From the NCBI GenBank assembly GCA_017994815.1, contig JAGOJY010000004.1, forward strand, positions 76,466 to 140,465: a stretch of DNA of 64,000 nt, read 5' to 3'. A model generated the notes under the pieces. It saw only the letters and a list, made by a program, of their open reading frames with translations, searched no databases and was not told the DNA's origin. Shown piece by piece: positions 14,481-62,006 of the stretch (the stretch's first letter is position 1; each line of letters starts with the position of its first letter). The stretch is from Acidobacteriota bacterium. GTDB lineage: Bacteria; Acidobacteriota; Polarisedimenticolia; J045. Position numbers and translations under genes: made by a program.

Positions 14481-14492
14481 GGTCGTTCCCCC

Positions 14493-44390: not shown

Positions 44391-45232
44391 TGCAGGACCT
44401 CCGCGACCGGTGGGTTGTAGTCTCGGCATGGCTCGGCACCCGCACGCTGGCGGCGGTGGGCCAGCGCGGCAAAGCGCAGCGCCAGCCGCTCGAGCGAGCG
44501 GCTGGCCGGCGCGAACGGCGCGTCGATGAGCACGGCCCGCTGGCGCTTGGCGGCCGTGACGACGGCCTCGTCGCGCGGGACGAAGCCGTCCAGGTCGATG
44601 CCCTGCGACAGGAACCGCTCGGCGGCGGCGAGCAGCCGCGCGTGCACCTGGCGCGCCTCGCGCTCGTCGGCGACCCCGTTGACGACCAGCCCGACCGGCT
44701 GGTTCGGCGTGCGGCGGCGCAGGAGCTTGAGCGTGGCGTAAGCGTCCACGAGCGCGGTCGGCTCGGGCCACGTCACCAGCGCGACGCGGTCGGCCAGCGC
44801 CAGGACGCGCGAGACCTGCTCGCTGATCCCCGCGGCGGTGTCCACGAGCAGCAGGTCGTTCTGCTCGCGCACGCGGCGCACGGCGTCGACGAAGCGCAAC
44901 AGCTCGTCGGTGGTCAGCCGGGTCAGCTCCGGGATCCCGGAGCCGGCCGGGATCAGGCGGATCCCGCCCGGCCCCTCGATCGTGATGTCGTCGAACGACG
45001 CGCCGTCGCGGAAGAAGTGCTCGATCGTGCGCTTGGGCACGAGGCCGAGCATCACGTCGAGGTTGGCGAGGCCGAGGTCGGCGTCGAGCACGGTCACGCG
45101 CAGGCCGAGCTTGGACATCGCGATGGCGAGGTTGGCGACGACGGAGGTCTTGCCGACGCCGCCCTTGCCCGACGTCACCGCGAGCGCCAGGCAGCGCTCC
45201 GCGCGGCGCGGCGCCAGCGCGGGCGCGCTCAC
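44387..45232 (-). CDS. flhG: Flagellar number regulator FlhG/FleN (MinD-like ATPase)
   Basis: Deviant Walker A SGKGGVGKT. GTG start overlaps the flhF stop. Confidence 0.85.
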   Translation of the reverse strand: MSAPALAPRRAERCLALAVTSGKGGVGKTSVVANLAIAMSKLGLRVTVLDADLGLANLDVMLGLVPKRTIEHFFRDGASFDDITIEGPGGIRLIPAGSGIPELTRLTTDELLRFVDAVRRVREQNDLLLVDTAAGISEQVSRVLALADRVALVTWPEPTALVDAYATLKLLRRRTPNQPVGLVVNGVADEREARQVHARLLAAAERFLSQGIDLDGFVPRDEAVVTAAKRQRAVLIDAPFAPASRSLERLALRFAALAHRRQRAGAEPCRDYNPPVAEVLH

Positions 45233-46230
45233 CGGGCCTCCCGGCGCAGCGCCACGGGCGGTTGCCCGGGCAGCGGCAGGGCCCACGCCGCGAGGCGGCG
45301 CGCGTCGGCCGGCAGCAGGTCGTCGGGGACGTCCGGACCGCAGCCGAGGTGGTGCAGCGGCAGGCGCGTGCGGGCCAGCGCGCTGATCAGCGTCCCGGGG
45401 CGGACGGCCTCGTCCACGCGCGTCGCGCCGAGCGCGCCGGGGTGCAGGCGCGCGAAGCGCCGCACCGTTTCGGCGAGCGCTTCCGGCTCGCCGTCCGCCG
45501 CGAGCAGCAGCTCGATCTCCTCCGGGCGCGTGCCGGCGAGAAGCTGCGCCAGCCAGTCCAGCGCCTCGCCGTCGTGGCGCGAGATCCCCGGCGTGTCGAG
45601 CAGCAGCGTGCCGCGCCGGCCGGCGGCTTCGCGCGCCGCGTACAGCTCGCGGCGGTTGCGCACCGCGTGGAACGGAATGCCCAGCACGCGCGCGTACGCT
45701 TCGAGCTGCTCGGCCCCGCCGAGCCGGCGCGTGTCGCACGACGCCAGCACGACCGTGCGGCCGTCGTGGCACAGCTCGCGCGCGGCGAGCTTGGCCGCGG
45801 TGGTGGTCTTGCCCACGCCCGGCGCGCCCACCAGCACCAGCAGCGACGAGCCCGTGACACGCGGCGGCGCGCCGGCCGGCAGCCACAGCGCGATCAGGTC
45901 GCGCGCGTAGCTGACGCACGCCTGGCGGTCCTCCAGCCGGTCGCTGTCGAGGTTCGACAGCGCCGCCGCCGTGATCTGCTCGGCCAGCGGCACCGAGAAG
46001 CCGCACGCGACGAGGTCGTCGCGCAGCCGCTCCGCCGCCGGGGAGTCCGGCAGGCACGGCGCCGCGCCGGGCAGCGCCCGCCGGGGCCCCGGCCGCTCGG
46101 CCGCCGCGAGCACTTCGACTCCCGCGGGACCGCGCCGTGTCTCGAGGATGCACGCGTCGGGTCCCAGCTCGCCGCGCACGCGCGCGAGCGCCTCGGCCCC
46201 GGTGCGTCCCTGGTAGGTCTTCACGAGCAT
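45229..46230 (-). CDS. flhF: Flagellar SRP-type GTPase FlhF
   Basis: GAPGVGKTTTAAKLAA and DTPG motifs. Confidence 0.85.
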   Translation of the reverse strand: MLVKTYQGRTGAEALARVRGELGPDACILETRRGPAGVEVLAAAERPGPRRALPGAAPCLPDSPAAERLRDDLVACGFSVPLAEQITAAALSNLDSDRLEDRQACVSYARDLIALWLPAGAPPRVTGSSLLVLVGAPGVGKTTTAAKLAARELCHDGRTVVLASCDTRRLGGAEQLEAYARVLGIPFHAVRNRRELYAAREAAGRRGTLLLDTPGISRHDGEALDWLAQLLAGTRPEEIELLLAADGEPEALAETVRRFARLHPGALGATRVDEAVRPGTLISALARTRLPLHHLGCGPDVPDDLLPADARRLAAWALPLPGQPPVALRREAR

Positions 46231-46360
46231 CCGCGCCCCAAGGGGGACAGGTGGCACACCGGTCCCCGGTTGTCGCTGCGAACCGCGCGTCGGCAAGTCC
46301 CTGTCTGTACGGGCCGCCGCAGGCGGCCCGCTACGCGACGCGTCACGCCGTCGCGCGTCA

Positions 46361-48409
46361 TCAGCTCACCGTTGCCAGCGCGCGGAGGGTCACCTCCGGC
46401 GGGATTTCCATCGTCGACAGCACCGCGGTGTGCGGCAGTTGCAGGCGCATCAAGGCCGAGAGCGACGGCCGCAGCAGCGGGCCGGTGACGATCGGGCACT
46501 GCGCGCCGGCGCCGGAAATCGCGGTGACGATCCGCGTGACGACCTCGCGCGCGCGCGCCGGCGCGAGGCCGCTGCCGGGTCCGCTCGGATCGCCGACCAG
46601 TGCCGCCGTCAGCTCGTCCTCCAGCTCCGGCGCCAGCGCCACGCAGCGCAGCGCGCCACGCTCGTCGGCCAGCCCGCCGACGATCGCGCGGCCGAGCGCG
46701 CGGCGGACCGTCTCGACGATCGTCTGCGTGTCGCGGGTGGCCGCGGCGTCGGCCATCGCCTCGACGATCAGCGCCAGGTCGCGGATCGAGACCCGCTCGC
46801 GCAGGAGCGCCTGCAGCACGCGCTGCACCTCGCCGACCGTGAGCCGCTCCGGGATCAGCTCGGCCACCGCCTTGGGGTGCGTCTTCTGCAGGTGGTCGAT
46901 CAGGCGCGCCACGTCCTCGCGGCCGAGGAGGTCGGCCGCGTGGCGCTGGATCAGTTCCATCAGGTGCGTGGTCAGGACCGACGGCGCGTCCACGACGGTG
47001 TAGCCGGCCGAGCGCGCGTCGTCGGCGCGGTCCGGCGCGATCCACACCGCCGGCAGGCCGAATGCCGGGTCCTTCGTCTTCTCGCCCTCGATCGGCCGCA
47101 GCGCGCCGGCGTCGAGCGCCAACAGGCGCCCGCGCGGGATGCGCCCCGTGCCGATGCGCACGCCGCGCAGGACGATCGCGTACTGGTCCGGCGGGAGCTG
47201 CAGGTTGTCGCGCACGCGCACCGGCGGCAGGACGAACCCCTGCTCGGCGGCGATCTGGCGCCGCAGGCCCTTGATCTTGTCCAGGATGCCGCCGCCGCGG
47301 TCGGCCCCGACGGCGCCGATCAGGTCGTAGCCGACCTCGACGCACAGCGGGTCGACGCCGAGCAGCGGCTCGACCTCGTCCTCCGGCGGGCGCTGCGGCT
47401 CCGGCTCCGGCGGCGGGGCCTCGGCTGCCTCGCGCTCGCGCGCCGACGCCGCGCGGGAGCCGGCGAACACTGCCGCGGCGAGGATCATGAACGAGACCTT
47501 CGGCAGGCCGGGGATTAGCGCGAGGGCGAACAACGTCCCGGCGGCGATGCGCAGCGGGCGCGGCGAGAGCAGCAGCTGGCCGACGACTTCCTCGCCCAGG
47601 CTGCGCTCCTGCGCCGCGCGGGTCGTGATCACGCCGCCGGCGATCGCGATCAACAGCGCCGGGATCGCGGTCACCAGGCCGTCGCCGATCGTCAGCACGG
47701 TGTAGGTCTGGAACGCCTCGGAGGCTTCCATCCCCTTCTGCAGGATCCCGATCAGAAGGCCCGCGCCGATGTTGATCAATACGATGATGAACGCCGCGAT
47801 CGCGTCGCGTTGCGTGAAGCGCACCGCGCCGTCCATCGAGCCGAAGAACTCCGCTTCCTTCTGGATCGCCAGCCGCCGCCCGATCGCCTCGCGCTCGGTG
47901 ATCAGCCCGGCGTTGAGGTCGGCGTCGATCGCCATCTGCTTGCCGGGCATCGCGTCGAGGGTGAAGCGGGCGATCACCTCGGAGATGCGGGTCGAGCCGT
48001 GCGCGATCACGACGAACTGCACGACCAGCAGCACCAGGAACACGACGATGCCGACCACGAACGAGCCGCCGACCACGAACTGGCCGAAGGCCTCGATCAC
48101 CACGCCGGCGGCGCGCGTCCCCTCCTCGCCGTGCAGCAGGATCGAGCGGGTGCAGGCGATGTTCAGCGCCAGCCGGAACAGCGTCAGCAGCAGCAGCAGC
48201 GACGGGAAGGACGAGAACTTCGTCGGCCCCGGCACGTACATCGCCGTCATCAGCACGACGAGGCTGGCCGCCAGGTCGACGGTGATCAGCACGTCGAGCA
48301 GCGCCGTCGGCACCGGCACCACGATCAAGGAAATCGCGCAGACCACGCCGATCGGCAGGATCAGCGCGCTCTTGGACATGCCGGCGGGCATCGCGGTCGC
48401 GGCGCTCAC
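46361..48409 (-). CDS. flhA: Flagellar export apparatus protein FlhA
   Basis: 682 aa. TM domain plus cytoplasmic domain with FHIPEP-family motifs. Confidence 0.9.
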   Translation of the reverse strand: MSAATAMPAGMSKSALILPIGVVCAISLIVVPVPTALLDVLITVDLAASLVVLMTAMYVPGPTKFSSFPSLLLLLTLFRLALNIACTRSILLHGEEGTRAAGVVIEAFGQFVVGGSFVVGIVVFLVLLVVQFVVIAHGSTRISEVIARFTLDAMPGKQMAIDADLNAGLITEREAIGRRLAIQKEAEFFGSMDGAVRFTQRDAIAAFIIVLINIGAGLLIGILQKGMEASEAFQTYTVLTIGDGLVTAIPALLIAIAGGVITTRAAQERSLGEEVVGQLLLSPRPLRIAAGTLFALALIPGLPKVSFMILAAAVFAGSRAASAREREAAEAPPPEPEPQRPPEDEVEPLLGVDPLCVEVGYDLIGAVGADRGGGILDKIKGLRRQIAAEQGFVLPPVRVRDNLQLPPDQYAIVLRGVRIGTGRIPRGRLLALDAGALRPIEGEKTKDPAFGLPAVWIAPDRADDARSAGYTVVDAPSVLTTHLMELIQRHAADLLGREDVARLIDHLQKTHPKAVAELIPERLTVGEVQRVLQALLRERVSIRDLALIVEAMADAAATRDTQTIVETVRRALGRAIVGGLADERGALRCVALAPELEDELTAALVGDPSGPGSGLAPARAREVVTRIVTAISGAGAQCPIVTGPLLRPSLSALMRLQLPHTAVLSTMEIPPEVTLRALATVS

Positions 48410-49503
48410 GACGTGGCCCCCTCGAGCTCAGGGTGCTGGCGGTAGCGCCCGCGCCCGCGGCGGCCCATGACGTAGGCGAAGACCTCGGCCACCGCGCGGT
48501 ACAGCGCGGCCGGCACCGGCGCGCCGAGCGGGCAGAGCTTGTCCAGCATCCGCGCCAGCGGGGGGTCCTCGACGATCGGCACGCTGTGCGCCCGCGCCTC
48601 GTCCTTGATGCGCTGCGCGAGCCGGTCCCAGCCCTTGGCGATGACGACCGGCGCCGCCATCCGCGCCTTGTCGTACTTCAGCGCGACGGCGACGTGCGTC
48701 GGGTTGGTCACGACCACGTCCGCGGTGCGGACGGCGGCCATCATCCGCCGCCGCGCCATCTCGCGCTGGCGCTGGCGGATGCGGCCGCGGATCATCGGGT
48801 CGCCTTCGTTTTCCTTCGACTCGTCGCGGACTTCCTGCTTGGTCATGTACAGCTGGCGGTACCAGCGAAACCAGGCGACGCCGAAGTCGACCACCGCGAT
48901 GGCGATCCCGACCAGGAGCGCGCGGAACAGGACGCGCCCGCAAATTCCGGCCAATTCGCCGATGAACGCCGACGTCGGCACCATCGCCAGCGAGGCGACG
49001 TGGCTCCACTCCGGCAGGACGACCGCCGCGGCGACCAGGCCGTAGAGGAACGTGCGCAGCAGCGCCTTGGCGGCGTTGATCAGCTTGGCGACGTTGATGA
49101 AGTTCTTCAGCCCGGTCACCGGGTTCAGGCGCTTGAGCTCGAACGGCAGCGGGTTCTTGCGCGGCTGGAACCCGCCCTGCAGCAGCTGGCCGACGACCCC
49201 GCCGACCAGTAGCAGCAGCAGCAGCGGGGCCATCATCACGAGGGCCTCGGTGGCGGACGAGACGATCCCGTCCATGAGCGCGGCCTCGCCCGGCCCGCGC
49301 CCGGCGCGCTGCAGCGTGACGCGCATCATCGAGGCCGACGCCGAGAGGAACGCCGCCCCGCCCAGCGCGGCCCACAGCAGGAACATCGCCAGCGCCGCGG
49401 CGTGGCCGATGTCCTGGCTGCGGGCGACCTGCCCCTGCTCGCGGGCGCGGCGGATGCGCCGGCCGGACGGCTTCTCGGTCCTTCTGTCCTTGTCCTCGGC
49501 CAT
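48406..49503 (-). CDS. flhB: Flagellar export apparatus protein FlhB
   Basis: NPTH autocleavage motif (VVVTNPTHVAVAL). Start taken at MAEDKD. Confidence 0.9.
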   Translation of the reverse strand: MAEDKDRRTEKPSGRRIRRAREQGQVARSQDIGHAAALAMFLLWAALGGAAFLSASASMMRVTLQRAGRGPGEAALMDGIVSSATEALVMMAPLLLLLLVGGVVGQLLQGGFQPRKNPLPFELKRLNPVTGLKNFINVAKLINAAKALLRTFLYGLVAAAVVLPEWSHVASLAMVPTSAFIGELAGICGRVLFRALLVGIAIAVVDFGVAWFRWYRQLYMTKQEVRDESKENEGDPMIRGRIRQRQREMARRRMMAAVRTADVVVTNPTHVAVALKYDKARMAAPVVIAKGWDRLAQRIKDEARAHSVPIVEDPPLARMLDKLCPLGAPVPAALYRAVAEVFAYVMGRRGRGRYRQHPELEGATS

Positions 49504-49504
49504 G

Positions 49505-50284
49505 TCAGCGCTGTCCGGCCACGGCCCGCAGCAGGCCGAAGGCATCGCCCGTCGCGCCGTCCAGCGCCTCGGCGACGATCGGGGCCAGCATGTGCAGCGA
49601 GAAGGCCAGCCCGAGCAGGGCGACGAGGTAGCGCAGGGGCGCGCCGACCACGAGGATGTTCATCTGCGGCACGGCGCGCGCGATCAGCATCAGGAACAGG
49701 TCGACGAGCATCGCCGCGGCGAGCACCGGCGCGGCCAGGCGCACGCCGAGCACGAGCATGCGGCCGGTGACCGACACCGCCGCCGGGAGCCACGGGCCGG
49801 TCAGGTGCACGGTCCCGCAGGGGACGATCTCGTACGACTTGGCCAGCGCCCCGATCATCTGGCGGTGCCCGCCGATCGCGAGGTACGCCAGCGCGCCGAG
49901 CAAGCGGTAGAACACGCCCAGGGTCGGCGTCGTCTGCTGCGTGACCGGGTCGAGCATGCTGGCGATGGCGAGCCCGCTGGAGTGGCTCCCCAGCTCGCCG
50001 GCGAACAGCGCCAGGTCCACCACCATCCGCGCGGCGAAGCCGATCAAGAGCCCCGCGAACAGCTCGCCGGCCACCAGCGGCAGGATCGCGGCGTTCGCGC
50101 CGGGGGCCGGCGCGATCGGCGCCAGTAGCAGCGCCAGCAGCACCGCGAAGCCGATCCGGAGCTGGGCCGGCACCGACTCCGAGCCGGCGATCGGCGCGGT
50201 CGCCACGAACGCGCCCGTGCGCACGGCGAGCGCCATCCCCGACAGGACGCTGTTCCACGGCAGCTGGAAGACGACCAGGTCCAT
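49505..50284 (-). CDS. fliR: Flagellar export apparatus protein FliR
   Basis: Polytopic; position between flhB and fliQ. Confidence 0.8.
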   Translation of the reverse strand: MDLVVFQLPWNSVLSGMALAVRTGAFVATAPIAGSESVPAQLRIGFAVLLALLLAPIAPAPGANAAILPLVAGELFAGLLIGFAARMVVDLALFAGELGSHSSGLAIASMLDPVTQQTTPTLGVFYRLLGALAYLAIGGHRQMIGALAKSYEIVPCGTVHLTGPWLPAAVSVTGRMLVLGVRLAAPVLAAAMLVDLFLMLIARAVPQMNILVVGAPLRYLVALLGLAFSLHMLAPIVAEALDGATGDAFGLLRAVAGQR

Positions 50285-52238: not shown

Positions 52239-53555
52239 CTACCCGCGCTTGATCGACAGCGCTTCCTGCATCACCTGGTCGGTCGTCGTGATGATCCGGC
52301 TGTTCGACTGGTAGCCGCGCTCGGCGATGATCAGGTCCGTGAACTGGTCCGTGATGTCCACGTTCGACAACTCGAGCGCGCGGGCCATGATCGTGCCGCG
52401 CCCGCCGGTCCCGGCCGTGCCGAGGGTCGCCGCGCCGGAACCGAGCGACGCGGTGTAGGTGTTGCCCGCGGCCTTGGTCAGCCCGGCCGGGTTGTTGAAC
52501 GAGGCGATCGCGAGCTGCGCGAGCTCGATCGTCTGCCCGTTGGTGAACGTCCCGCTGATCAGCCCCGCGTCGTTGACGGTCAGCGTGCGGATGCGGCCGA
52601 CCCCGTAGCCGTTCTGCGACATGCTGCTGATCGCGGAGTCCATGGCGAAGCCGGTGACCAGCGGCGTGGCGTCGGTCTCGAACAGGCCCCAGACGACGTC
52701 CTGCGCCGCGGCGCCGTTGGCCCAGCCCGGGATCGACAGCGTGACGTTGGCGGCCGGATCGGTGAGCTGCCCGTTGCTGTCGAACTGCATCGTCCCGGAG
52801 TCGATCACCTCGTACTCGGGGTCGCCGGGGGCGACCGGGATGCCGAGGTCGCTCTTCGGCGCTCGGGCTTCCCAGGTCCAATCGTCGAGCTTGCCGTCGC
52901 CGTCGTTGTCGATCGGCGTGAACACCAGCGTCAGCTCGTGCTCCGCGCCGAGCGAATCGAACACGGGGACGGTGTTGGTGTACATCTCGGCTTCATTGGC
53001 CGCGGTGGCCGGGTTGTCGACCAGCGCCTCCGCGTTGAGGTTCATCGTCAGCTCGAACAGCGTGGTCGTGTTCGGCGGCGCCTGCAGGCCGGCCGGGATG
53101 CGGATGTCGCTGATGCTGCCGGACGGGATGATGTGACCGAGCGGGTCCAGCTCGGTGTAGCCCTGCACGCGGTGCCCGTTCGGATCGACCAGGTAGCCGT
53201 TGGCGTCGAACGAGAAGTTCCCGGCGCGCGAGTAGACCGGCAAGCCGTCGTGGGTGCGCAGCGCGAACAGGCCGGAGCCCTGCAGCGCCATGTCGGTCTC
53301 GACGTCGGTCGGCTGCAGCGCGCCCTGGTTGAAGATCTGGTGCACGGCGGCCAGCTGCGTGCCGAGGCCGATCTGGAACGGCACGCCCGCCCCGTTGACG
53401 CCGGCGGTGGTGGACGAGAACAGCTCGGCGAACGAGGCACGACTGCCCTTAAAGCCGAACGTGTTGACGTTCGCCAGGTTGTTGCCGATCACGTTCAGTT
53501 GCGCCGAATGCGCCTTGAGTCCGGTCAACCCCGTGTAGAACGCGCTGTAGGCCAT
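52239..53555 (-). CDS. flgE: Flagellar hook protein FlgE
   Basis: Conserved rod/hook N- and C-terminal motifs; 438 aa. Confidence 0.9.
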   Translation of the reverse strand: MAYSAFYTGLTGLKAHSAQLNVIGNNLANVNTFGFKGSRASFAELFSSTTAGVNGAGVPFQIGLGTQLAAVHQIFNQGALQPTDVETDMALQGSGLFALRTHDGLPVYSRAGNFSFDANGYLVDPNGHRVQGYTELDPLGHIIPSGSISDIRIPAGLQAPPNTTTLFELTMNLNAEALVDNPATAANEAEMYTNTVPVFDSLGAEHELTLVFTPIDNDGDGKLDDWTWEARAPKSDLGIPVAPGDPEYEVIDSGTMQFDSNGQLTDPAANVTLSIPGWANGAAAQDVVWGLFETDATPLVTGFAMDSAISSMSQNGYGVGRIRTLTVNDAGLISGTFTNGQTIELAQLAIASFNNPAGLTKAAGNTYTASLGSGAATLGTAGTGGRGTIMARALELSNVDITDQFTDLIIAERGYQSNSRIITTTDQVMQEALSIKRG

Positions 53556-53634: not shown

Positions 53635-54321
53635 CTATTGCGCCTGGATCTCCCAGATATCCGCGAAATCGATCGTGCGGCCGCCCGAGACGAGCGTCAG
53701 CGTGCCGCCGCCGAAGTTGATGCCGTCGATCTCCAGCTCGACGTACGCCTGCGCGTTGACCTCGCGCCCCTCGCCGTCCACCGTCACCACGCGGAACGAG
53801 TAGTCGCCCGGTTCGAGCTGCTGGCCGTTCTCGGCGTCGATGCCGTCCCAGCGGAACTCGTTGCGCCCGGCCTTCACGTCATCGAGCGCCACGCTGGTCA
53901 CGAACTGCCCGCTGGCGTCGAAGATGTCCACTCGCGCCGCGCGCGGCGCCTCGCCGAGTTCGAACGCGATCGCCTCGGCGCCGTCCTCGCGCAGCCGGAA
54001 CTTGCCATCGGTGTTCGCGAGCACGTTGCGGCCGACCAGGCTCAGCGCCTGGCTGTTGACGAGCTGGTCCTGGCCGCTATTGAGCAGGTCCATGCGCTTG
54101 TTCAGGTCGACCAGCTGCTCGAGGCTGGAGAAGGTCGCGAGCTGCGCGACGAACTCGTGGTCCTGCATCGGCTCGAGCGGGTTCTGGTTTTCCATCTGCG
54201 CCACCAGCAGCTTGATGAACTCGTTGCGGCCGAGGCCCTGGGTCGCATCGGCCCACGGGCTGGCCTCGGTCACGGTGCGGTAGCTGCTGTTGTCGAGCCC
54301 GATGTCGGTGATGGTGCTCAT
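53635..54321 (-). CDS. flgD: Flagellar hook capping protein FlgD
   Basis: Internal Met MSTITDIGLD... NEFIKLLVAQMENQNPLEPM matches the FlgD motif. Confidence 0.85.
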   Translation of the reverse strand: MSTITDIGLDNSSYRTVTEASPWADATQGLGRNEFIKLLVAQMENQNPLEPMQDHEFVAQLATFSSLEQLVDLNKRMDLLNSGQDQLVNSQALSLVGRNVLANTDGKFRLREDGAEAIAFELGEAPRAARVDIFDASGQFVTSVALDDVKAGRNEFRWDGIDAENGQQLEPGDYSFRVVTVDGEGREVNAQAYVELEIDGINFGGGTLTLVSGGRTIDFADIWEIQAQ

Positions 54322-54449: not shown

Positions 54450-57068
54450 TCAGGTGATGACGTCGAGGCGCGTGGAGGCGTGGAAGTGCTGCAGGCGCGC
54501 CGCCGCGTGCGCGGGGTGCGGGTCGCGCTGCGCGGCCTGCCCGCCACCCTGCTGCCCGTGCCCCCGGGAACCGTCGCGGTCGGCGGCGCCCGCCTGGTCG
54601 TGGCGCTGCCCGTCGCCCGCCGCGGCGAGCGGGACCTCGACCCGTGCCGGCTCGCCGGGGCGCGAGAGCAGCGCTTCCAGCCGGGCCGCGCCGTCCGCGA
54701 GCAGGCCCGCGACTTCGGGCGTTTCGGCCATCAAGCGCACGTGCAGTTCGCGCCCGCGCAGGGTGAGCCGCGCGAGGACGTGGCCCAGTTCCGGCGGATC
54801 GAGCGCAAGCGTGACCGTGCCCGTCGGCAGCGATGCGATGCGCGCGGCGAGTTGTTCGATCACGATCGTGGAGGGACCGGATGACGCTGGCGCGGCCGAA
54901 CGCACCGGCGAGGGCGGCACCGGCCCGCTGGCCGCGGCCGGTTTCGCGGCCGCGACGGCGTGCAGTTCCGCCGCGCGCGGCGGGCGCTGCGACGCCGCGC
55001 TCGCGGCATCCCGCGGTGCGCGGTCATCGGCAGGCCGCGGCGCTGTGGCCGCCCGGGAGGCCGGATCCGGAACCGGGTCCGTCTCGCGCGACGGCTGGCG
55101 CGGCGTGGGCTCCACCTCGCGGCCCGCGGACCGCGCCGCGATCTCCGGAAGCGGCGCCGCAGAGACCGGCACGTGCACCACCGTCGAGCGGAACGCGGCA
55201 ACTTCGTCGATGTGCGTGGGGACAGGTGGCGCACCTGTCGCCGCAGGCCGATACGAACCGTCCACCACGACGCGCTGCGCGGCGGGCGTGGGGACAGGTG
55301 GCGCACCTGTCTCGGCAGTCCGATTTGGATTCTCCGGGGCCACGTGGCCAAAGACCCGCGTCGGTGCCGGGCCGCCTGCGGCGGCCCCTACGAAGACCAC
55401 CGAATCCCCGGCGGCGACCAGCCTGGGGACCGGCGGATTCGAACCGCGCGCTTCGGCGCGCGTGGGGACAGGTGGCGTACCTGTCTCGGCAGTCCGATTT
55501 GGATTCTCCGGGGCCAGGTGGTCAAAGACCCGCGTCGGTGCCGGGCCGCCTGCGGCGGCCCCTACGAAGACCACCGAATCACCGGCGGCGACCAGCCTGG
55601 GGACCGGCGGATTCGAACCGCGCGCTTCGGCGCGCGTGGGGACAGGTGGCGCACCTGTCTCGGCAGTCCGACTTGGATTCTCCGGGGCCAGGTGGTCAAA
55701 GACCCGCGTCGGTGCCGGGCCGCCTGCGGCGGCCCCCACGAAGACCACCGAATCACCGGCGGCGACCAGCCTGGGGACCGGCGGATTCGAACCGCGCGCT
55801 TCGGCGCGCGTGGGGACAGGTGGCGCACCTGTCGTCGCAGTTCGAATCCAACGGTCCGCGAAGACGCGTTCGGCAGCCGGCGTCGGGACGGGTGGCGGAC
55901 CTGTTTCCGCAGTTCGATTCGAACCGTCGACCGTGACGCGTGACGCGGCCGGCGTGGGGACGGATGGCGCACCTGTTTCCGCAGGTGGATTCGAACCGTC
56001 GACGACGACGGAATCCGTCGGATTCGAATCGCCGGAAGCGACGGGAGTGGCGACAGGTGGCGCACCTGTCACCGCCGTTCGACCATTTTCCGGGGCCACG
56101 TGGTCAAAGATCGGTGTCGGTGCCGGGCCGCCTGCGGCGGCCCCTACGAAGCCCGCCGAATCGCCGGCGGCGACGGGCGGCGGGACCGGCGGATTCGAGC
56201 CGCCTGCGGCGACCGGCGTGGGGACCGGCTGGTTCGCACCGCGGGCAGTGGCGGGCGTCGGGACGGGTGGCGGACCTGTTTCCGCAGTTCGATTCGAACC
56301 GTCGACCGTGACGCGTGACGCGGCCGGCGTGGGGACGGGTGGCGGACCTGTTTCCGCAGTTCGATTCGAACTGTCGACGACGACGGAATCCGCCGGGTTC
56401 GAACCGCCGGAAGCGACGGACGTGGGGACGGGTGGCGCACCTGTCACCGTCGTTCGACCATTTTCCGGGGCCACGTGGTCGAAGATCGGTGTCGGTGCCG
56501 GGCCGCCTGCGGCGGCCCCTACGAAGCCCGCCGAATCGCCGGCGGCGACCGGCGTGGGGACCGGCTGGTTCGCACCGCGGGCAGTGGCGGGCGTGGGGAC
56601 AGGTGGCCGACCTGTCTGCGCAGGCCGATTCGAGCCGTCCACCACGACGCGTGACGCGGCCGGCGTGGGGACGGATGGCGCACCTGTTTCCGCAGTTCGA
56701 TTCGAACCTTCGACGACGACGGAATCCGTCGGGTTCGAACCGCCGGAAGCGACGGGCGTGGGGACGGGTGGCACAGCTGTCGCCGTGGTGCGATTCGCAA
56801 GATCCACGGCGACGGACTCAGCGACGACCGTGGTTCTCGGGTCCTTCGCCCCGTGGTCCAAGACCCGTGTCGGTGCCGGGCCGCCTGCAACGAACGGCGT
56901 GGGGACCGATGGGCGTTCCGCCTGTGCCCCGTCGCCCCGTTTCAGCGCCTGGGCCAGGAGCTGCATGAACGTGGCGCGGTGCGGGGCCGCCCGGGCAGCC
57001 GGCGGTCCGCCGGCGGCCGTCGCGCCCCCGAGCGCGACGCGCAGCAGCAGGGAGATCGGAACTCGCAT
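54450..57068 (-). CDS. fliK: Flagellar hook-length control protein FliK with greatly expanded Pro/Thr-rich tandem-repeat ruler region
   Basis: C-terminal Flg_hook domain LALDPPELGHVLARLTLRGRELHVRLMAETPEVAGLL. Start is uncertain; MRVPISLLL at 57068 was chosen, and the ORF extends to 57470. Confidence 0.65.
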   Translation of the reverse strand: MRVPISLLLRVALGGATAAGGPPAARAAPHRATFMQLLAQALKRGDGAQAERPSVPTPFVAGGPAPTRVLDHGAKDPRTTVVAESVAVDLANRTTATAVPPVPTPVASGGSNPTDSVVVEGSNRTAETGAPSVPTPAASRVVVDGSNRPAQTGRPPVPTPATARGANQPVPTPVAAGDSAGFVGAAAGGPAPTPIFDHVAPENGRTTVTGAPPVPTSVASGGSNPADSVVVDSSNRTAETGPPPVPTPAASRVTVDGSNRTAETGPPPVPTPATARGANQPVPTPVAAGGSNPPVPPPVAAGDSAGFVGAAAGGPAPTPIFDHVAPENGRTAVTGAPPVATPVASGDSNPTDSVVVDGSNPPAETGAPSVPTPAASRVTVDGSNRTAETGPPPVPTPAAERVFADRWIRTATTGAPPVPTRAEARGSNPPVPRLVAAGDSVVFVGAAAGGPAPTRVFDHLAPENPSRTAETGAPPVPTRAEARGSNPPVPRLVAAGDSVVFVGAAAGGPAPTRVFDHLAPENPNRTAETGTPPVPTRAEARGSNPPVPRLVAAGDSVVFVGAAAGGPAPTRVFGHVAPENPNRTAETGAPPVPTPAAQRVVVDGSYRPAATGAPPVPTHIDEVAAFRSTVVHVPVSAAPLPEIAARSAGREVEPTPRQPSRETDPVPDPASRAATAPRPADDRAPRDAASAASQRPPRAAELHAVAAAKPAAASGPVPPSPVRSAAPASSGPSTIVIEQLAARIASLPTGTVTLALDPPELGHVLARLTLRGRELHVRLMAETPEVAGLLADGAARLEALLSRPGEPARVEVPLAAAGDGQRHDQAGAADRDGSRGHGQQGGGQAAQRDPHPAHAAARLQHFHASTRLDVIT
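55230..56900. repeat. Tandem ~180-bp (60-aa) repeats inside fliK, about 8 copies, three nearly identical
   Basis: Near-perfect recurrence, e.g. gtggggacaggtggcgcacctgtctcggcagtccga...gaaccgcgcgcttcggcgcgc. The protein repeat is RTAETGAPPVPTRAEARGSNPPVPRLVAAGDSVVFVGAAAGGPAPTRVFDHLAPENPN. Confidence 0.75.
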
Positions 57069-57201
57069 CGCCCGGCGTGGAGGCAAGCCGCGTGCCGCCG
57101 GCCGGCGGTCGCCGTACGCCGCGCTCGTTCGGCGCCGAGCGGCGCCCGGCAAGATTTGCCGACCGGCCGCACGAGATTGCCGCGCGGCACCCCATGGCCG
57201 T

Positions 57202-57228
57202 TCAAGCTCGTCTGAATCGGGCCGAAAC
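57202..57228 (+). promoter_or_regulatory. Sigma-28-type promoter TCAAGCTC-N11-GCCGAAAC upstream of the CheX-REC-like gene
   Basis: Matches the class of elements seen upstream of flgM and cheY. Lies in the divergent region between fliK and the plus-strand gene. Confidence 0.4.
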
Positions 57229-57264
57229 GAACTTGAGCCATCTCCGGTGGCGAACGGGAGCGTC

Positions 57265-58404
57265 GTGGAGACCACGACCGCCAGCATCCTGGCGCGCCTG
57301 CTGCGCAGCGAAGCGGAAGCCGTCCTCGCCGCATTCGCGGAGAGCCTGGAAGCGCTCGTCGGCCGCAAGGTCGACGTCGAGCCGCTGCCGGCGGGCAACG
57401 CCGAGATCCCGATCCTGTTCGGCGACCGCGAACTGTACGTTTTCCCGATCGAGGCGCAGAGCGGCACCACGCAGCCGGCGTTGCTCGCCCTCGACCTGCC
57501 GGGCGCGGTCTACCTCGGTGCGTCGCTCAGCCTGATGGGGCCCGAACAGGTCAACGAGGTCCTCGGCAGCGGCGAGATCCCCGAGATCCTCCACGACTCG
57601 ATCGGCGAGGTCGCCAACATCCTCTGCGGCGGCGTCGCGAAGATCGTGCGGCTGCGCGCCCCGTCGGGGACCCCGGAGTTCCGCCGCGGGCCGCACTTCG
57701 AGCGGCGCGGGGTCGGTGCGTGGCCGGACCTGCTGAGCGCCTTCGATCCCGATCCCGCGGCGCCGTGGGACGTGCTCGGCGGTCGGCTGAGCCTCGCCGG
57801 GGCCGACTCGGGCACGTTCCTGTGGGCCGCCAGCGGCCGCAAGCGCAAGGCCGCCGCGGCGGAAAAGGCGGACCCCGCGGCGGCGACCGGATCGCACCCC
57901 GCGACCGAGCCGCGCATCACCGCCCCGCAGCCGATCCAGCAGCCGGCCGCGCCAGCGCCTGCGCCGCGCGAGGCAGCGGCGTCGCCGGAGCGCCGCGCGA
58001 AACCCGAGCCGGCACCGGCCGCCTCGCCGCAGCCGTGGCTCCCGTCGGCACTCCTGGTGCAGGTCACGGGGCACCCGGCGGACGCGGCGGTCGTCGGGTT
58101 GCGCAGCGTGCTCGACGCCGCCGGGGCCTCGGTCCTGCCGTCGTTCTCGCCGGTGACGGGGGCGCAGGGGCCGGGGGCGCTGTTCGTGGTGAGCCGGTCG
58201 CCGGTCGACCTGAAGTCGCGGCTGGAGTCGATCGCGCCGGGGCGGCGGCCGCCGCTCGTCGTCGCGTGCTCCGACCGCCCGACCCGCGAGCTGGTGCAGG
58301 CGGCGCGGGCCGCCGGGGCCGACGACTTCCTCGTGCTCCCGGCGGCGGTGGACCGCCTGGCAACGGTCCTGCGGCGCTTCATCAGCGCGGAAGCCCCGGC
58401 ATAG
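57265..58404 (+). CDS. CheX/CheC-like domain protein with C-terminal receiver (REC)-like domain
   Basis: C-terminal segment of the 1316-aa antisense track ORF. CheX-like GEVANILCGGVAKI. C-terminus resembles a REC tail (GADDFLVLP). GTG start with GGGAG SD; alternative GTG at 57247. Confidence 0.55.
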   Translation: METTTASILARLLRSEAEAVLAAFAESLEALVGRKVDVEPLPAGNAEIPILFGDRELYVFPIEAQSGTTQPALLALDLPGAVYLGASLSLMGPEQVNEVLGSGEIPEILHDSIGEVANILCGGVAKIVRLRAPSGTPEFRRGPHFERRGVGAWPDLLSAFDPDPAAPWDVLGGRLSLAGADSGTFLWAASGRKRKAAAAEKADPAAATGSHPATEPRITAPQPIQQPAAPAPAPREAAASPERRAKPEPAPAASPQPWLPSALLVQVTGHPADAAVVGLRSVLDAAGASVLPSFSPVTGAQGPGALFVVSRSPVDLKSRLESIAPGRRPPLVVACSDRPTRELVQAARAAGADDFLVLPAAVDRLATVLRRFISAEAPA

Positions 58405-58486: not shown

Positions 58487-59947
58487 GTGGAAACGACCCG
58501 TTTCCCGCGAGGCGGCATGCGCGTGATGCCTTTCCCCGACCCGAGGAAGGGACTCGTGCGAGGGGTGATCCTCGCCTTGGTCCTGGCGGCCCTCGCCGCC
58601 GCGTACGGGTGTCGCGGCCCGCGCCAGCCGAATGTCGTTCTGATCTCGATCGACACGCTGCGCGCCGACAAGCTCGGGGCCTACGGGCACACCGCCCCGA
58701 CCAGCCCCGCGGTCGATCGCCGGCTCGCGGCGCAGGGCGTCACCTTCACCCGCGCGTTCAGCCAGTCGCCGAAGACGACGCCCTCGCACATGTCGATGCT
58801 CACGTCGCTGTACCCGTGCGTGCACGGGGTCGAGCTGTGGACTTCGTCCGAAACGCCGAGCGCCAAGCTCCGTCCGGCGATCGACACGCTCGCGGAGCTA
58901 CTGCAGGCGTCCGGCTACGCCACCGTCGCGTTCACCGGCGGCGGCCACGTGCACGCCTCGCGCGGTTTCGCCGATGGCTTCGACACCTACGAGCACGGGG
59001 ACGAGCTGAAGAGAACGCTGGAGTGGCTGCGCGCGCACGGCCGCGACGGGAAGTTCTTCCTGTTCTTCCACACGTACCTGGTCCACGATCCGTACGTGCA
59101 CCCGCTGCGCTACATCCGGCAGTTCGACCCCGATTACAACGGCCCGGTGCTCGAACGCGTCGAGCAGCTCAACCAGCGCGCGCGGGGACGCCACACCCGT
59201 CCGGTGAGCGAGAAGAAGATGAGCCGGGCGCAGGCGTTCTGGGAGGTCGTCGACCGCAACAACCCCGCCGACGTGCGCTTCGTCGAGCACCTCTACGAGG
59301 CCGGCATCCTCCGCATGGACGAAACACAGCTGACGCCGCTGCTCGACCTGCTCGACGAACTCCAGCTCGCGGAGAACACGCTCGTCGTCTTCACCTCCGA
59401 CCACGGCGAGGCGTTCCTCGAGCACGGCAACTTCCTGCACATGGACCTCTACGGCGAGACGCTCCACGTCCCGCTGATCGTCCGATACCCGGGCCACGTG
59501 CCGGCCGGCGCGCGCTTCGACGCCCCCGTCACCTCGCTCGACCTGATGCCGACGATCCTCGACATCGCCGGGCTGCCGGTCCCGGCGGCGGCGCAGGGAC
59601 GCAGCCTCGTGCCGCTGTGGAGCGGCGGGAAGATCGCGCCGCTGCCGACGATCAGCGAGTGGAACGGCCGCGCCAGCGGCGTGCCGTTCTCGGCGGTCCG
59701 CGACGGCGGGTTCTCGTACATCGTCGAGGGTTCCGACGAGCAGCTGTTCGACTTGGGCGCCGATCCGGGCGAGCGGAACTCGCTCGTGCAGCAGCAGGCC
59801 GGGCAGCTGGCCGCGCTGCGGGCGCAAAAGGCCGAGTGGGAGAAGGAGTGCCGGATCCGCGCGAGCCAGCTCGGGCCGCCGCCGAGCGGGGCCGGGCCCT
59901 CCGAGGAAACCCGGCGCCAGCTGCGGGCCCTGGGGTACGTTCAGTAA
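58487..59947 (+). CDS. Sulfatase (alkaline-phosphatase superfamily)
   Basis: VVLISIDTLRADKLGAYGH...SPKTTPSHMSMLTSLYP matches the sulfatase N-terminal signature. Confidence 0.85.
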   Translation: METTRFPRGGMRVMPFPDPRKGLVRGVILALVLAALAAAYGCRGPRQPNVVLISIDTLRADKLGAYGHTAPTSPAVDRRLAAQGVTFTRAFSQSPKTTPSHMSMLTSLYPCVHGVELWTSSETPSAKLRPAIDTLAELLQASGYATVAFTGGGHVHASRGFADGFDTYEHGDELKRTLEWLRAHGRDGKFFLFFHTYLVHDPYVHPLRYIRQFDPDYNGPVLERVEQLNQRARGRHTRPVSEKKMSRAQAFWEVVDRNNPADVRFVEHLYEAGILRMDETQLTPLLDLLDELQLAENTLVVFTSDHGEAFLEHGNFLHMDLYGETLHVPLIVRYPGHVPAGARFDAPVTSLDLMPTILDIAGLPVPAAAQGRSLVPLWSGGKIAPLPTISEWNGRASGVPFSAVRDGGFSYIVEGSDEQLFDLGADPGERNSLVQQQAGQLAALRAQKAEWEKECRIRASQLGPPPSGAGPSEETRRQLRALGYVQ

Positions 59948-61039: not shown

Positions 61040-61519
61040 TCAGCGCCGGCGCATGTGGTTGTACATCAGCGCGGTTTCGACCGACTTGCCCTCGATGCGC
61101 CAGTTGAGCTGCGCGCCGGCCGATGCGCCGACGTTGACCATCTGCGCGCGCCCGGCGAGCACGGAGGGCAGCGACAGCTCGAGGTGGATGCCGGAGGCCT
61201 CGATGCGGCGCTTGACCGAGCCACCGAGGATGTTCGCCAGCTCGCCCAGGCTGTCCGCGACCGCGGGATCGCTGGCCGCGAGTTCCTCGTCGCCCAGGAG
61301 CATCCCGGCGAGCCGCCGGGCGGTCGCCTCGGCGCAGGAAAAGCGCAGCAGGCCGCGGAACTCGGGGCCAGCCAGGCCGATGATCCCGGTCATGCTCGGC
61401 GAGTCCGGCTCGCCGCCGGTGCCCGGGCCGTCGTAGGGCAGCGCGAACAGCGTTTCCATCACCTCGCGAAACGACTCGACCAGGGCCGCACCGAGATCGA
61501 CCTGCTCCACGACGTTCAT
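61040..61519 (-). CDS. cheX: Chemotaxis protein CheX
   Basis: Internal Met MNVVEQVD...GELANILGGSV matches CheX. Confidence 0.8.
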   Translation of the reverse strand: MNVVEQVDLGAALVESFREVMETLFALPYDGPGTGGEPDSPSMTGIIGLAGPEFRGLLRFSCAEATARRLAGMLLGDEELAASDPAVADSLGELANILGGSVKRRIEASGIHLELSLPSVLAGRAQMVNVGASAGAQLNWRIEGKSVETALMYNHMRRR

Positions 61520-61544
61520 CTCGTCTCCCGTTCCTGTGTGCCCG

Positions 61545-61928
61545 TCAGGTCCGGCAGGCGAGCAGCACCGGCGCGAGCGTCTCGGCCAGCTTCTCGGGGG
61601 TGAACGGCTTGGTGACGAAGCCGTTGGCACCGGCGTCGAGCGCGCGCTGGATGCGCTCCTTGCCGCCCTCGGTGGTCACCATCAGCATCGGCATGTGGTA
61701 ACCCTTGGCGCGGCTGGCGATGACGAAGTCGATCCCGTTCATGTTGGGCATGTTCCAGTCGCAGAGCACGAGGTCCGGTTTCGGCGAGCGCTCCAGCATC
61801 GCCAGCGCCTCGACGCCGTCCGAAGCCTCGAGCACCTCGCCGACGCCGAGCGCGGCCTGGCGCAGCGCGCGCGTGATCACCTTGCGCATCACGACCGAGT
61901 CGTCGACCAGCAGAACGTTCAAGGCCAT
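61545..61928 (-). CDS. cheY: CheY-like response regulator
   Basis: Internal Met MALNVLLVDDS with D/D/K receiver residues (LCDWNMPNMNG, TKPF). Confidence 0.85.
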   Translation of the reverse strand: MALNVLLVDDSVVMRKVITRALRQAALGVGEVLEASDGVEALAMLERSPKPDLVLCDWNMPNMNGIDFVIASRAKGYHMPMLMVTTEGGKERIQRALDAGANGFVTKPFTPEKLAETLAPVLLACRT

Positions 61929-61979
61929 CGGCGCGCTCCCTCTCCCGGCCGCGCGAGGCGCGCGGCCTTCCGGGAAGCT

Positions 61980-62006
61980 CATCGGGAATCACGCCCGGAA
62001 ACTTGA
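61980..62006 (-). promoter_or_regulatory. Sigma-28-type promoter TCAAGTTT-N11-TCCCGATG upstream of cheY-cheX (minus strand)
   Basis: Read on the minus strand. The -35 half is strong; the -10 half is imperfect. Confidence 0.35.

What the first reader, a model, noticed from the sequence alone, without database searches (positions are those of the whole stretch)
54450..57068. FliK carrying about eight tandem 60-aa repeats (three near-identical 180-bp copies)
The hook-length ruler is expanded to roughly 870 aa by recent tandem duplication of a Pro/Thr-rich unit. FliK length scales hook length, so this predicts an unusually long hook. Near-identical copies also make the locus prone to copy-number variation by slippage or recombination.
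Basis: partly seen in the sequence, partly recalled or inferred. Interest (0 to 1): 0.5.

Follow-up and report, generated by a model that had tools for sequence, protein, structure and literature searches.

The report
FliK hook ruler with expanded repeats
An uncultured Acidobacteriota bacterium encodes an 872-residue flagellar hook-length ruler (FliK), nearly two-thirds of it stacked tandem repeats, which public annotation cuts to its last 137 residues; it is a real but fairly ordinary variation on a known protein.

Summary
The minus-strand ORF 54450..57068 (872 aa) is FliK. It has a Flg_hook/T3S4 C-terminal domain, lies directly upstream of flgD-flgE in a large flagellar cluster, and has a FliK-like N-terminus.

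Residues 54-614 form a hierarchical tandem array of 20 modules, each starting with PVPTP. The module types are 13, 24, 31 and 44-47 aa. The array includes three near-identical 174-bp (58-aa) units, not 180-bp, and two 336/375-bp super-repeats.

A JGI contig from a sister strain (~94% identical), assembled independently, also carries three 58-aa units in an open FliK frame. It differs by one in-frame 27-bp deletion. Substitutions between the strains show coding constraint (pN/pS 0.48). Copies within the window resemble each other more than they resemble their positional orthologues, so homogenisation or re-duplication is recent.

NCBI annotates only the last 137 aa, probably because codon usage in the repeats is atypical (GC3 0.70).

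The predicted long hook (~150 nm on the Salmonella calibration) and copy-number variation remain inference. The full array is spanned by only one assembly. Natural repeat-bearing rulers are known (YscP), and other FliKs with repeats or greater length turned up here. I judge it a new member of a known kind, of modest interest.

The parts
54450..57068 (-). fliK coding sequence, 872 aa plus stop
   Evidence: ORF and start candidates. Pfam Flg_hook, E 7e-12. Logan gene calls from both ends use this frame and the ATG at 57068. The N-terminus aligns from residue 1 with relative P0009.
56910..57068 (-). N-terminal region, residues 1-53 (MRVPIS...ATFMQLLAQALKRG); presumed export signal and hook/cap-binding part
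   Evidence: Positive codon-usage score in the FliK frame and GC3 0.85. BLASTP to the P0009 N-terminus, E 7e-5. AF2 predicts a helix at residues 28-42 with low confidence. The function is inferred.
55227..56909 (-). Repeat array, residues 54-614: 20 PVPTP-initiated modules (a 31 aa, b 24, c 13, d 44-47)
   Evidence: Composition P 18%, A 17%, V 13%, T 10.5%, G 10.5%. GC3 0.70.
56433..56768 (-). Super-repeat 1 (a1 b1 c1 d1), 336 bp
   Evidence: forms part of the 375-bp-period array.
56058..56432 (-). Super-repeat 2 (a2 b2 c2 c2' d2), 375 bp, with one extra 39-bp c module
55821..56057 (-). Partial super-repeat 3 (a3 b3 b3')
   Evidence: The b3 and b3' modules have orthologues in sister strain L097.
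55299..55820 (-). Three near-identical 174-bp (58-aa) c-d units
   Evidence: TRF 97% identity. Copies differ at 2-5 of 141 core nt. Three units are also present in L097.
55227..55298 (-). Terminal b module (b7)
54864..55226 (-). Non-repetitive Pro/Ala-rich linker, residues 615-735
   Evidence: pN/pS 0.92 between strains.
54660..54827 (-). Core of the T3S4 / Flg_hook domain (residues 748-803), the part that would contact FlhB
   Evidence: Pfam PF02120, 45.4 bits against a cut-off of 29.8. Profile hit to PDB 2RRL, E 1.7e-4. pN/pS 0.34.
54450..54863 (-). The only part annotated in the public record (MBP7146493.1, 137 aa, internal GTG start)
   Evidence: The next annotated protein is MBP7146494.1 at 57247, which leaves about 2.4 kb unannotated.
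53635..54321 (-). flgD (hook cap), immediately downstream
   Evidence: Pfam FlgD, FlgD_ig and FLgD_tudor. A 228-aa gene call on Logan contigs.
52239..53555 (-). flgE (hook protein, 438 aa)
   Evidence: Pfam. Identical protein in 11 Logan contigs (8 shown) and in NCBI as MBP7146491.1.
48406..49545 (-). flhB, the switch partner of FliK, with NPTH autocleavage motif at residue 281
   Evidence: Pfam Bac_export_2, E 3e-110. NPTH motif.
57247..58404 (+). Divergently transcribed hypothetical gene (385 aa) that bounds the fliK start region
   Evidence: Exact gene call in 6 Logan contigs. NCBI MBP7146494.1. No Pfam or NCBIfam family.

Best explanation
This is the flagellar hook-length control protein FliK of an uncultured Acidobacteriota bacterium, encoded as one 872-aa protein.

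Layout:
- a short N-terminal region (residues 1-53, presumed export signal and hook-cap/hook contact);
- a 561-residue spacer rich in Pro, Ala, Thr, Gly and Val, built by hierarchical tandem duplication of PVPTP-initiated modules;
- a 121-residue non-repetitive Pro/Ala linker;
- the C-terminal T3S4 domain that flips FlhB from hook-type to filament-type export.

Inferred mechanism, by analogy with Salmonella FliK and Yersinia YscP. FliK is exported intermittently through the growing hook. The switch fires only when the hook is long enough for the N-terminus to reach the cap while the C-terminal domain sits at FlhB. A longer spacer should therefore set a longer hook. The Salmonella slope of 0.2 nm per residue gives roughly 150 nm. 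The value would be larger if the proline-rich spacer is more extended than a helix.

The array is evolutionarily active. The three 58-aa units have been homogenised or re-duplicated in this lineage, and a sister strain carries an in-frame 9-aa deletion.

What is shown: gene identity, the single ORF, the repeat anatomy, coding constraint, and turnover between strains. What is inferred: export, ruler function of the repeats, and hook length.
For: Identity as FliK:
- Pfam Flg_hook, E 7e-12, above the gathering score.
- Profile hit to the Salmonella FliK C-domain structure 2RRL.
- All 69 other significant hits of an exhaustive phmmer search align to the C-terminal part of the query (mostly residues ~640-872), and the closest have FliK-like layouts.
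- Gene order is fliK-flgD-flgE-fliN-fliO-fliP-fliQ-fliR-flhB-flhA-flhF.
- FlhB has NPTH.

Single long CDS:
- The frame is open from 57068 to 54450, and only this frame and its mirror antisense frame lack stops.
- Every module and every indel between copies is a multiple of 3: 39, 72, 93, 132/135/141 nt.
- Gene calls on Logan contigs enter the array in this frame from both sides and start at 57068.
- The N-terminus aligns from residue 1 with relative P0009.
- Relatives L095 and L096 also have long in-frame Pro-rich ORFs upstream of a truncated FliK call.
- pN/pS between strains in the repeats is 0.48 (P 0.009), against about 1.2-1.4 in four other frames.

Reality of the array:
- Sister-strain contig L097 has b b' (c d)x3 b in an open frame.
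- Logan contigs from several samples are 99.95-100% identical to the window; the furthest-reaching on the 5' side (56666) and two on the 3' side (55315) stop exactly where the window's repeated 31-mers begin, others stop short of these points and one (L001) runs to 55389.

Turnover: difference matrix.

Ruler principle: PMC6126814, PMC6972891, and YscP repeats in PMC3469391.
Against: - No assembly other than this MAG spans the whole array, so the total module count rests on one contig.
- Codon usage in the repeats fits no frame (all scores negative, GC3 0.70).
- The pN/pS signal cannot separate the FliK frame from its mirror antisense frame.
- The AlphaFold model is uninformative (mean pLDDT 34.6).
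- No N-terminal family model matches.
- The length-to-hook relation has been measured only within Salmonella and Yersinia.
- In Salmonella, lengthening the linker next to FliKC by 40 residues impaired switching (PMC6972891).
- The sister strain has the same number (3) of 58-aa units, so copy-number polymorphism has not been seen.
Confidence: 0.7

Rival explanations
1. The repeats are real and translated, but they do not act as a proportional ruler. The proline-rich spacer would be a compact or merely tolerated low-complexity tether, possibly with another role, and hook length would be about normal.
For: Sequence constraint is weak within the array (pN/pS 0.3-1.3 between copies; 0.48 between strains). 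FliK central regions differ freely in length and sequence among relatives: 394-729 aa and first-start upper bounds of ~370-790 aa. There is no cross-species calibration. Over-long linkers impair switching in Salmonella.
Against: Engineered FliK of 363-785 aa gave tightly controlled hooks of 42-135 nm, linear in length. YscP repeat number correlates with needle length. Purifying selection and a preserved frame across strains indicate that the segment matters.
Confidence: 0.2
2. The copy number or order of modules in the window is an assembly error: collapse, expansion or a chimeric join in a metagenome-assembled genome.
For: All 14 Logan contigs break at or before the array edges, so none verifies the interior 55390-56665. 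The first 18 residues of L097 are d-type where the window has an a module. Extra fully identical copies would collapse silently.
Against: The longest exact repeat is 96 bp and each copy has private SNPs. The ORF stays in frame. An independent assembly of a diverged strain gives the same b b' (c d)x3 b order and the same count of three. The furthest-reaching Logan ends (55315 and 56666) match the positions predicted from the window's own repeat structure.
Confidence: 0.1
3. The deposited annotation is right. FliK would be only the 137-aa C-terminal protein starting at the internal GTG (54863), and the repeat region would be untranslated or a decaying remnant.
For: NCBI calls only 137 aa. Many short FliK entries exist in databases. 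Codon statistics in the repeats are non-coding-like.
Against: A C-terminal domain alone lacks the N-terminal export and ruler part that FliK function needs (PMC6972891). No stop occurs in 2.6 kb, and all indels are multiples of 3. There is an excess of synonymous change between strains. Gene calls on Logan contigs extend through the region. The same truncation pattern appears in relatives that also have long open upstream frames, which points to a systematic gene-calling failure.
Confidence: 0.05
4. The repeats are translated on the plus strand, in the mirror frame of the 1316-aa ORF 54454..58404, as an N-terminal extension of the divergent gene.
For: That frame has no stops and shows the same pN/pS as the FliK frame.
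Against: This is the classic shadow frame that shares third codon positions with the true frame. The same signal appears over the T3S4 domain, which is certainly minus-strand coding. The plus-strand gene is called from 57247 in six assemblies and in NCBI. An extension would have to run antisense through the whole of fliK.
Confidence: 0.02

Closest known systems
Salmonella enterica FliK (405 aa; FliKN ruler 1-207, Pro-rich linker 208-267, FliKC 268-405; PDB 2RRL)
   Same: Both have a C-terminal Flg_hook/T3S4 domain, a disordered proline-containing middle, a position in a flagellar cluster, and an FlhB partner with NPTH. Intragenic duplication inside fliK arises readily in the laboratory as a suppressor (PMC6972891).
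   Different: The protein here is 2.15 times longer. 64% of it is recent tandem repeats. There is no detectable sequence similarity outside the C-terminal domain. fliK is the first gene of its operon and lies directly upstream of flgD-flgE.
Yersinia YscP, the injectisome needle-length ruler
   Same: YscP is a secreted ruler with a T3S4 C-terminal domain. Its ruler part carries natural tandem repeats of 14, 25 and 46 aa whose number differs between strains and correlates linearly with needle length (PMC3469391). The modules here are 13, 24, 31 and 44-47 aa.
   Different: YscP belongs to a non-flagellar T3SS. There is no sequence relationship in the repeats. Strain-to-strain copy-number differences are documented for YscP but have not been seen here.
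Engineered long FliK variants (Spoering et al. 2018, PMC6126814)
   Same: Lengthening the ruler to 785 aa still gave controlled hooks of up to 135 nm. The present protein is a natural counterpart of similar or greater length.
   Different: Those inserts were alpha-helical YscP segments in a peritrichous host. Here the spacer is 18% proline, and the FlhF gene suggests a polar flagellum.
FliK of related uncultured bacteria (L095 and L096, JGI 3300037318) and of SAR324 (L062, L065)
   Same: L095 and L096 share the fliK-flgD-flgE(438 aa) synteny and a Pro/Ala-rich centre, have their own short tandem repeats (KQA[PS]EAPPAP, four copies with one G for E change, in L095), and were truncated by gene callers. 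SAR324 FliKs hold 24-aa tandem repeats.
   Different: Their repeats are unrelated in sequence, much shorter and fewer. These proteins are shorter: at least 598 aa, about 712 aa, 697 aa and 680 aa.

Membership tests
FliK (flagellar hook-length control protein) | C-terminal Flg_hook / T3S4 domain | tested here: met
   PF02120, 45.4 bits (cut-off 29.8), E 7e-12. Profile A1 against PDB 2RRL, E 1.7e-4. Of the 70 phmmer hits, one is the database's own 137-aa copy of this protein and the other 69 align to the C-terminal part of the query.
FliK (flagellar hook-length control protein) | Encoded among flagellar hook and export genes | tested here: met
   flgD and flgE follow directly, then fliN, fliO, fliP, fliQ, fliR, flhB, flhA and flhF.
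FliK (flagellar hook-length control protein) | N-terminal region carrying a hook-type export signal and FlgD/FlgE binding | tested here: inconclusive
   The only evidence is weak similarity to the N-terminus of relative P0009, starting at residue 1 (E 7e-5), and an F-x-x-L-L-type motif. No family model matches. Export is not testable in silico.
FliK (flagellar hook-length control protein) | Flexible, proline-containing segment between the N-terminal and C-terminal parts | tested here: met
   Residues 54-735 contain 18% Pro in the repeats. AF2 gives no confident fold there (weak evidence).
FliK (flagellar hook-length control protein) | Partner FlhB with the NPTH autocleavage site | tested here: met
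   FlhB at 48406-49545 has NPTH at residue 281.
FliK (flagellar hook-length control protein) | Is secreted, and sets hook length and the export switch | not testable with these tools
   Requires genetics, EM or a secretion assay.
Repeat-tuned T3SS rulers (YscP-like behaviour) | Tandem repeats inside the ruler region | tested here: met
   TRF and module map.
Repeat-tuned T3SS rulers (YscP-like behaviour) | Repeat number differs between strains | tested here: inconclusive
   Sister strain L097 has the same three 58-aa units. It also has a 9-aa in-frame deletion, divergent copies, and possibly a different upstream module. The 5' half of its array was not recovered.
Repeat-tuned T3SS rulers (YscP-like behaviour) | Length of the appendage scales with ruler length | not testable with these tools
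   Known for Salmonella FliK and Yersinia YscP. No data exist for this organism.

The most novel reading that the evidence does not exclude
The PVPTP module array could be a natural, recombination-driven 'dial' for hook length. Unequal crossing-over and gene conversion among modules would keep generating FliK length variants within populations of this acidobacterial lineage. Selection would then tune an unusually long hook (>=150 nm) for a polar flagellum. This would be the flagellar counterpart of YscP repeat variation, and a case where a proline-rich rather than helical ruler sets the length.
Probability: 0.2. Interest if true: 0.55.

Novelty: new member of a known kind. Interest (0 to 1): 0.3.

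Why it matters
Three points would matter if the reading is right.

1. It is a natural FliK whose ruler segment is built almost wholly from recent repeats. That gives a ready-made series (1..n modules) for testing whether a proline-rich, non-helical spacer obeys the 0.2 nm-per-residue rule established with helical inserts in Salmonella.

2. It exposes a systematic annotation error. PGAP and IMG truncate FliK to its C-terminal domain in this high-GC clade, here and in two relatives. Protein databases therefore lack these ruler regions, and surveys of FliK length based on them are biased.

3. The two-strain comparison shows concerted evolution inside a flagellar structural gene.

None of this changes the understanding of how hook length is controlled.

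Tried and rejected
- Word-indexed homologue search with the full protein: 8000 candidates, none significant. It was swamped by low-complexity words.
- GTDB scan with FliK: no relative found.
- GTDB scan with FlgE: the nearest match is a Ca. Polarisedimenticolia MAG at 59% over a partial gene, on a contig without fliK.
- Two JGI metagenome scans (a 23-mer from the repeat, and the FliK peptides) found nothing. These negatives carry little weight, because the JGI contig L097 contains both the 23-mer and one of the peptides. That collection is evidently incomplete.
- The profile search of the 5.8-billion protein set returned only short FliK fragments, so it was useless for a length survey.
- NCBIfam: no family for FliK.
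- AlphaFold2 single-sequence model: mean pLDDT 34.6, so I ran no fold search.
- Sigma-70 promoter and terminator scan of the fliK/divergent-gene intergenic region: nothing found. A sigma-54-like GGCA...TTGC seen by eye has the wrong spacing.
- Codon-usage scoring cannot pick a frame in the repeats.
- pN/pS among copies within the window rests on too few changes to be informative.
- The cluster of the divergent gene has no sister-strain member, so the 5' half of the sister array could not be fetched.
Full report
**What is there**

The region holds one long minus-strand ORF. From the ATG at 57068 to the stop at 54450 it encodes 872 aa.
- Its C-terminus matches Pfam Flg_hook (FliK), E 7e-12, 45.4 bits against a cut-off of 29.8.
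- A profile of this domain and its relatives hits the solved Salmonella FliK C-terminal domain, 2RRL (E 1.7e-4).
- Directly downstream lie flgD and flgE, then fliN, fliO, fliP, fliQ, fliR, flhB (NPTH at residue 281), flhA, an FlhF-type GTPase, a sigma factor, and rod, ring and hook-associated genes.
- Upstream, a hypothetical gene is transcribed divergently from 57247.

The window comes from a 154-kb contig of a MAG labelled Acidobacteriota bacterium. The nearest FlgE among GTDB species representatives is a Candidatus Polarisedimenticolia MAG, at 59% over a partial gene.

**Repeat anatomy**

Tandem Repeats Finder gives a 174-bp period x 3.3 copies at 97% identity, a 375-bp period x 1.9 at 92%, and 72-bp and 39-bp periods.

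At protein level, residues 54-614 (window 55227-56909) split cleanly into 20 modules that all begin with PVPTP or a close variant. There are four types: a (31 aa), b (24), c (13) and d (44-47). Their order is d0 | a b c d | a b c c d | a b b | (c d)x3 | b.

'About eight 60-aa repeats' is a rough description of a nested, hierarchical array that makes up 64% of the protein.

The array is 18% Pro, 17% Ala, 13% Val and 10.5% each Thr and Gly. The motif occurs nowhere else in the window.

**Is it one gene, and is the start upstream of the repeats?**

The public record says no. NCBI annotates only the last 137 aa (MBP7146493.1, from an internal GTG at 54863). The next annotated protein is the divergent gene MBP7146494.1, so about 2.4 kb is unannotated. 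I conclude that this annotation is wrong, for seven reasons.
1. Only the FliK frame and its mirror antisense frame are free of stops across the array.
2. Every module length and every indel between copies is a multiple of three: 39, 72, 93, 132/135/141 nt.
3. Gene calls on independent Logan contigs run into the array in the FliK frame from the 3' side (312 residues, to the contig edge). From the 5' side they start exactly at 57068.
4. The N-terminus (MRVPIS..., then ATFMQLLAQAL) aligns from residue 1 with the N-terminus of a 729-aa relative (E 7e-5).
5. Two related loci with the same synteny were also called as 138- and 163-aa FliK. Both have long in-frame Pro/Ala-rich ORFs upstream (at least 598 aa, and up to 828 aa but probably about 712), so the truncation is a systematic gene-calling failure.
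6. Between this strain and a sister strain, substitutions in the repeats show an excess of synonymous change in the FliK frame (pN/pS 0.48, P 0.009). Four other frames give about 1.2-1.4. The T3S4 domain gives 0.34 and the linker 0.92.
7. A C-terminal domain alone would lack the export and ruler part that FliK function requires (PMC6972891).

The likely cause of the truncation is atypical codon usage. GC3 is 0.70 in the repeats against 0.85-0.96 around them, and a codon-usage score is negative in every frame there. One caveat remains: the pN/pS signal is identical in the mirror antisense frame, which shares third codon positions. That is also true over the T3S4 domain, where the coding strand is not in doubt.

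**Is the array an assembly artefact?**

Fourteen Logan contigs from several sequencing runs are 99.95-100% identical to the flanks. None crosses the array.
- Their furthest ends (55315 and 56666) are exactly the positions predicted by the outermost repeated 31-mers in the window, 55286 and 56695. The outer repeat structure therefore exists in those samples, but the interior is not verified by them.
- The longest exact repeat is 96 bp, so 150-bp reads can resolve the array as assembled.

The decisive evidence is JGI contig L097 (sample 3300010346). It is a sister strain about 94% identical, and it reaches 782 bp into the array with the FliK frame open to the contig edge.
- Its layout is b b' (c d)x3 b. 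This is the same order and the same three 58-aa units, with one in-frame 27-bp deletion at the junction of units 1 and 2.
- The 3' half of the array, including the triplet, is thus independently confirmed.
- The 5' half (55985-56665) rests on this MAG alone.

**Turnover**

Over a 141-nt core, the numbers of differences are as follows:

| Comparison | Differences |
|---|---|
| Between the window's three units | 2, 3 and 5 |
| Between the sister strain's three units | 7, 13 and 14 |
| Positional orthologues, unit 1 | 14 |
| Positional orthologues, unit 2 | 10 |
| Positional orthologues, unit 3 | 2 |

Units 1 and 2 of the window look like recent copies of unit 3. This means gene conversion or loss-and-reduplication after the strains split, which supports 'recent' duplication and active recombination in the array. 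Actual copy-number polymorphism was not observed.

The first 18 residues of L097 are d-type where the window has an a module. This may reflect a different module order, but it lies at a contig end and is weak evidence.

**How unusual is it?**

An exhaustive phmmer search of 1.84 billion representative proteins gave 70 hits. One is the database's own 137-aa copy of this protein; the other 69 align to the C-terminal part of the query (mostly ~640-872, a few reaching back to 448-590), lengths up to 729 aa. The absence of repeat matches is partly because such regions are not called as genes.

In 58 ORFs with a FliK-like C-terminus, found upstream of flgD-flgE or flgE in diverse genomes, maximal ORF lengths for complete ORFs are about 370-790 aa. 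One reaches 1249 aa (L081), which is an upper bound. Two SAR324 FliKs carry their own 24-aa tandem repeats. This protein is thus at the long end and extreme in repeat content, but neither length nor repeats is unique among FliKs.

I found no paper describing natural tandem repeats in FliK. The analogous injectisome ruler YscP is well known to vary between Yersinia strains by repeats of 14, 25 and 46 aa, with a linear effect on needle length (PMC3469391).

**Mechanism and prediction (inference)**

In Salmonella, FliK variants of 363-785 aa give tightly controlled hooks of 42-135 nm, at 0.2 nm per residue (PMC6126814). Applied here, 872 aa extrapolates to about 150 nm. A proline-rich chain could be more extended than the helical inserts used there.

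Several points count against a simple extrapolation.
- No cross-species calibration exists.
- Over-long linkers next to FliKC impaired switching in Salmonella.
- The structure model is uninformative (mean pLDDT 34.6).

I put about 0.85 on 'a single 872-aa FliK with a genuine repeat array'. I put about 0.5 on 'the hook is substantially longer than in relatives'.

**Verdict**

Identity, start, translation and recent duplication are supported; the long hook and copy-number variation are untested. This is a new member of a known kind, of modest interest. Its most useful by-products are a corrected gene model and a natural module series for testing ruler mechanics.

Noticed in passing
window 54864-57246: The deposited NCBI annotation has no gene over about 2.4 kb. 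FliK is called as 137 aa (MBP7146493.1) and the next protein is MBP7146494.1 at 57247. The repeat-bearing five-sixths of fliK is therefore absent from protein databases.
   Followed up: yes
L095 1-1796 and L096 635-3121 (JGI 3300037318): Two related loci with identical synteny also have FliK truncated by the gene caller (163 and 138 aa). In-frame Pro/Ala-rich ORFs of at least 598 aa and up to 828 aa lie upstream. L095 carries four tandem copies of KQA[PS]EAPPAP, with one G for E change.
   Followed up: partly
L062 6968-9061, L065 7013-9055 (SAR324 MAGs); L081 4929-8678: SAR324 FliK ORFs contain about 24-aa tandem repeats in their centres. An unclassified MAG with a Campylobacter-like FlgE has an ORF of up to 1249 aa (first-start upper bound) whose C-terminus matches the FliK C-terminal profile built here, and it has no repeats.
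   Followed up: partly
window 57247-58404 (+): This is a divergently transcribed 385-aa hypothetical protein with no Pfam or NCBIfam family. By eye, its N-terminal half has a CheC/CheX-like look (…HDSIGEVANILCGG…) and its C-terminal part looks receiver-like. A divergent gene also sits upstream of fliK in L096; whether it is homologous was not tested.
   Followed up: partly
window 45229-46296 (-) and 43623-44771 (-): An FlhF-type SRP54 GTPase and a sigma-70-family (FliA-like) factor lie inside the flagellar cluster. This suggests polar flagellation under FlhF control.
   Followed up: no
window 61040-61988 (-): A CheX-domain protein and a single-domain response regulator lie next to each other, just beyond a sulfatase (58487-59947) and a GDSL-like gene.
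   Followed up: no
window 9591-14492 (-): A very long ORF (about 1634 codons) has coding-like GC3. I did not examine it.
   Followed up: no
Metagenome-contig collection: Both JGI scans returned nothing, although JGI contig L097 contains the searched 23-mer twice and one of the searched peptides. Negatives from that collection should be read with caution.
   Followed up: yes
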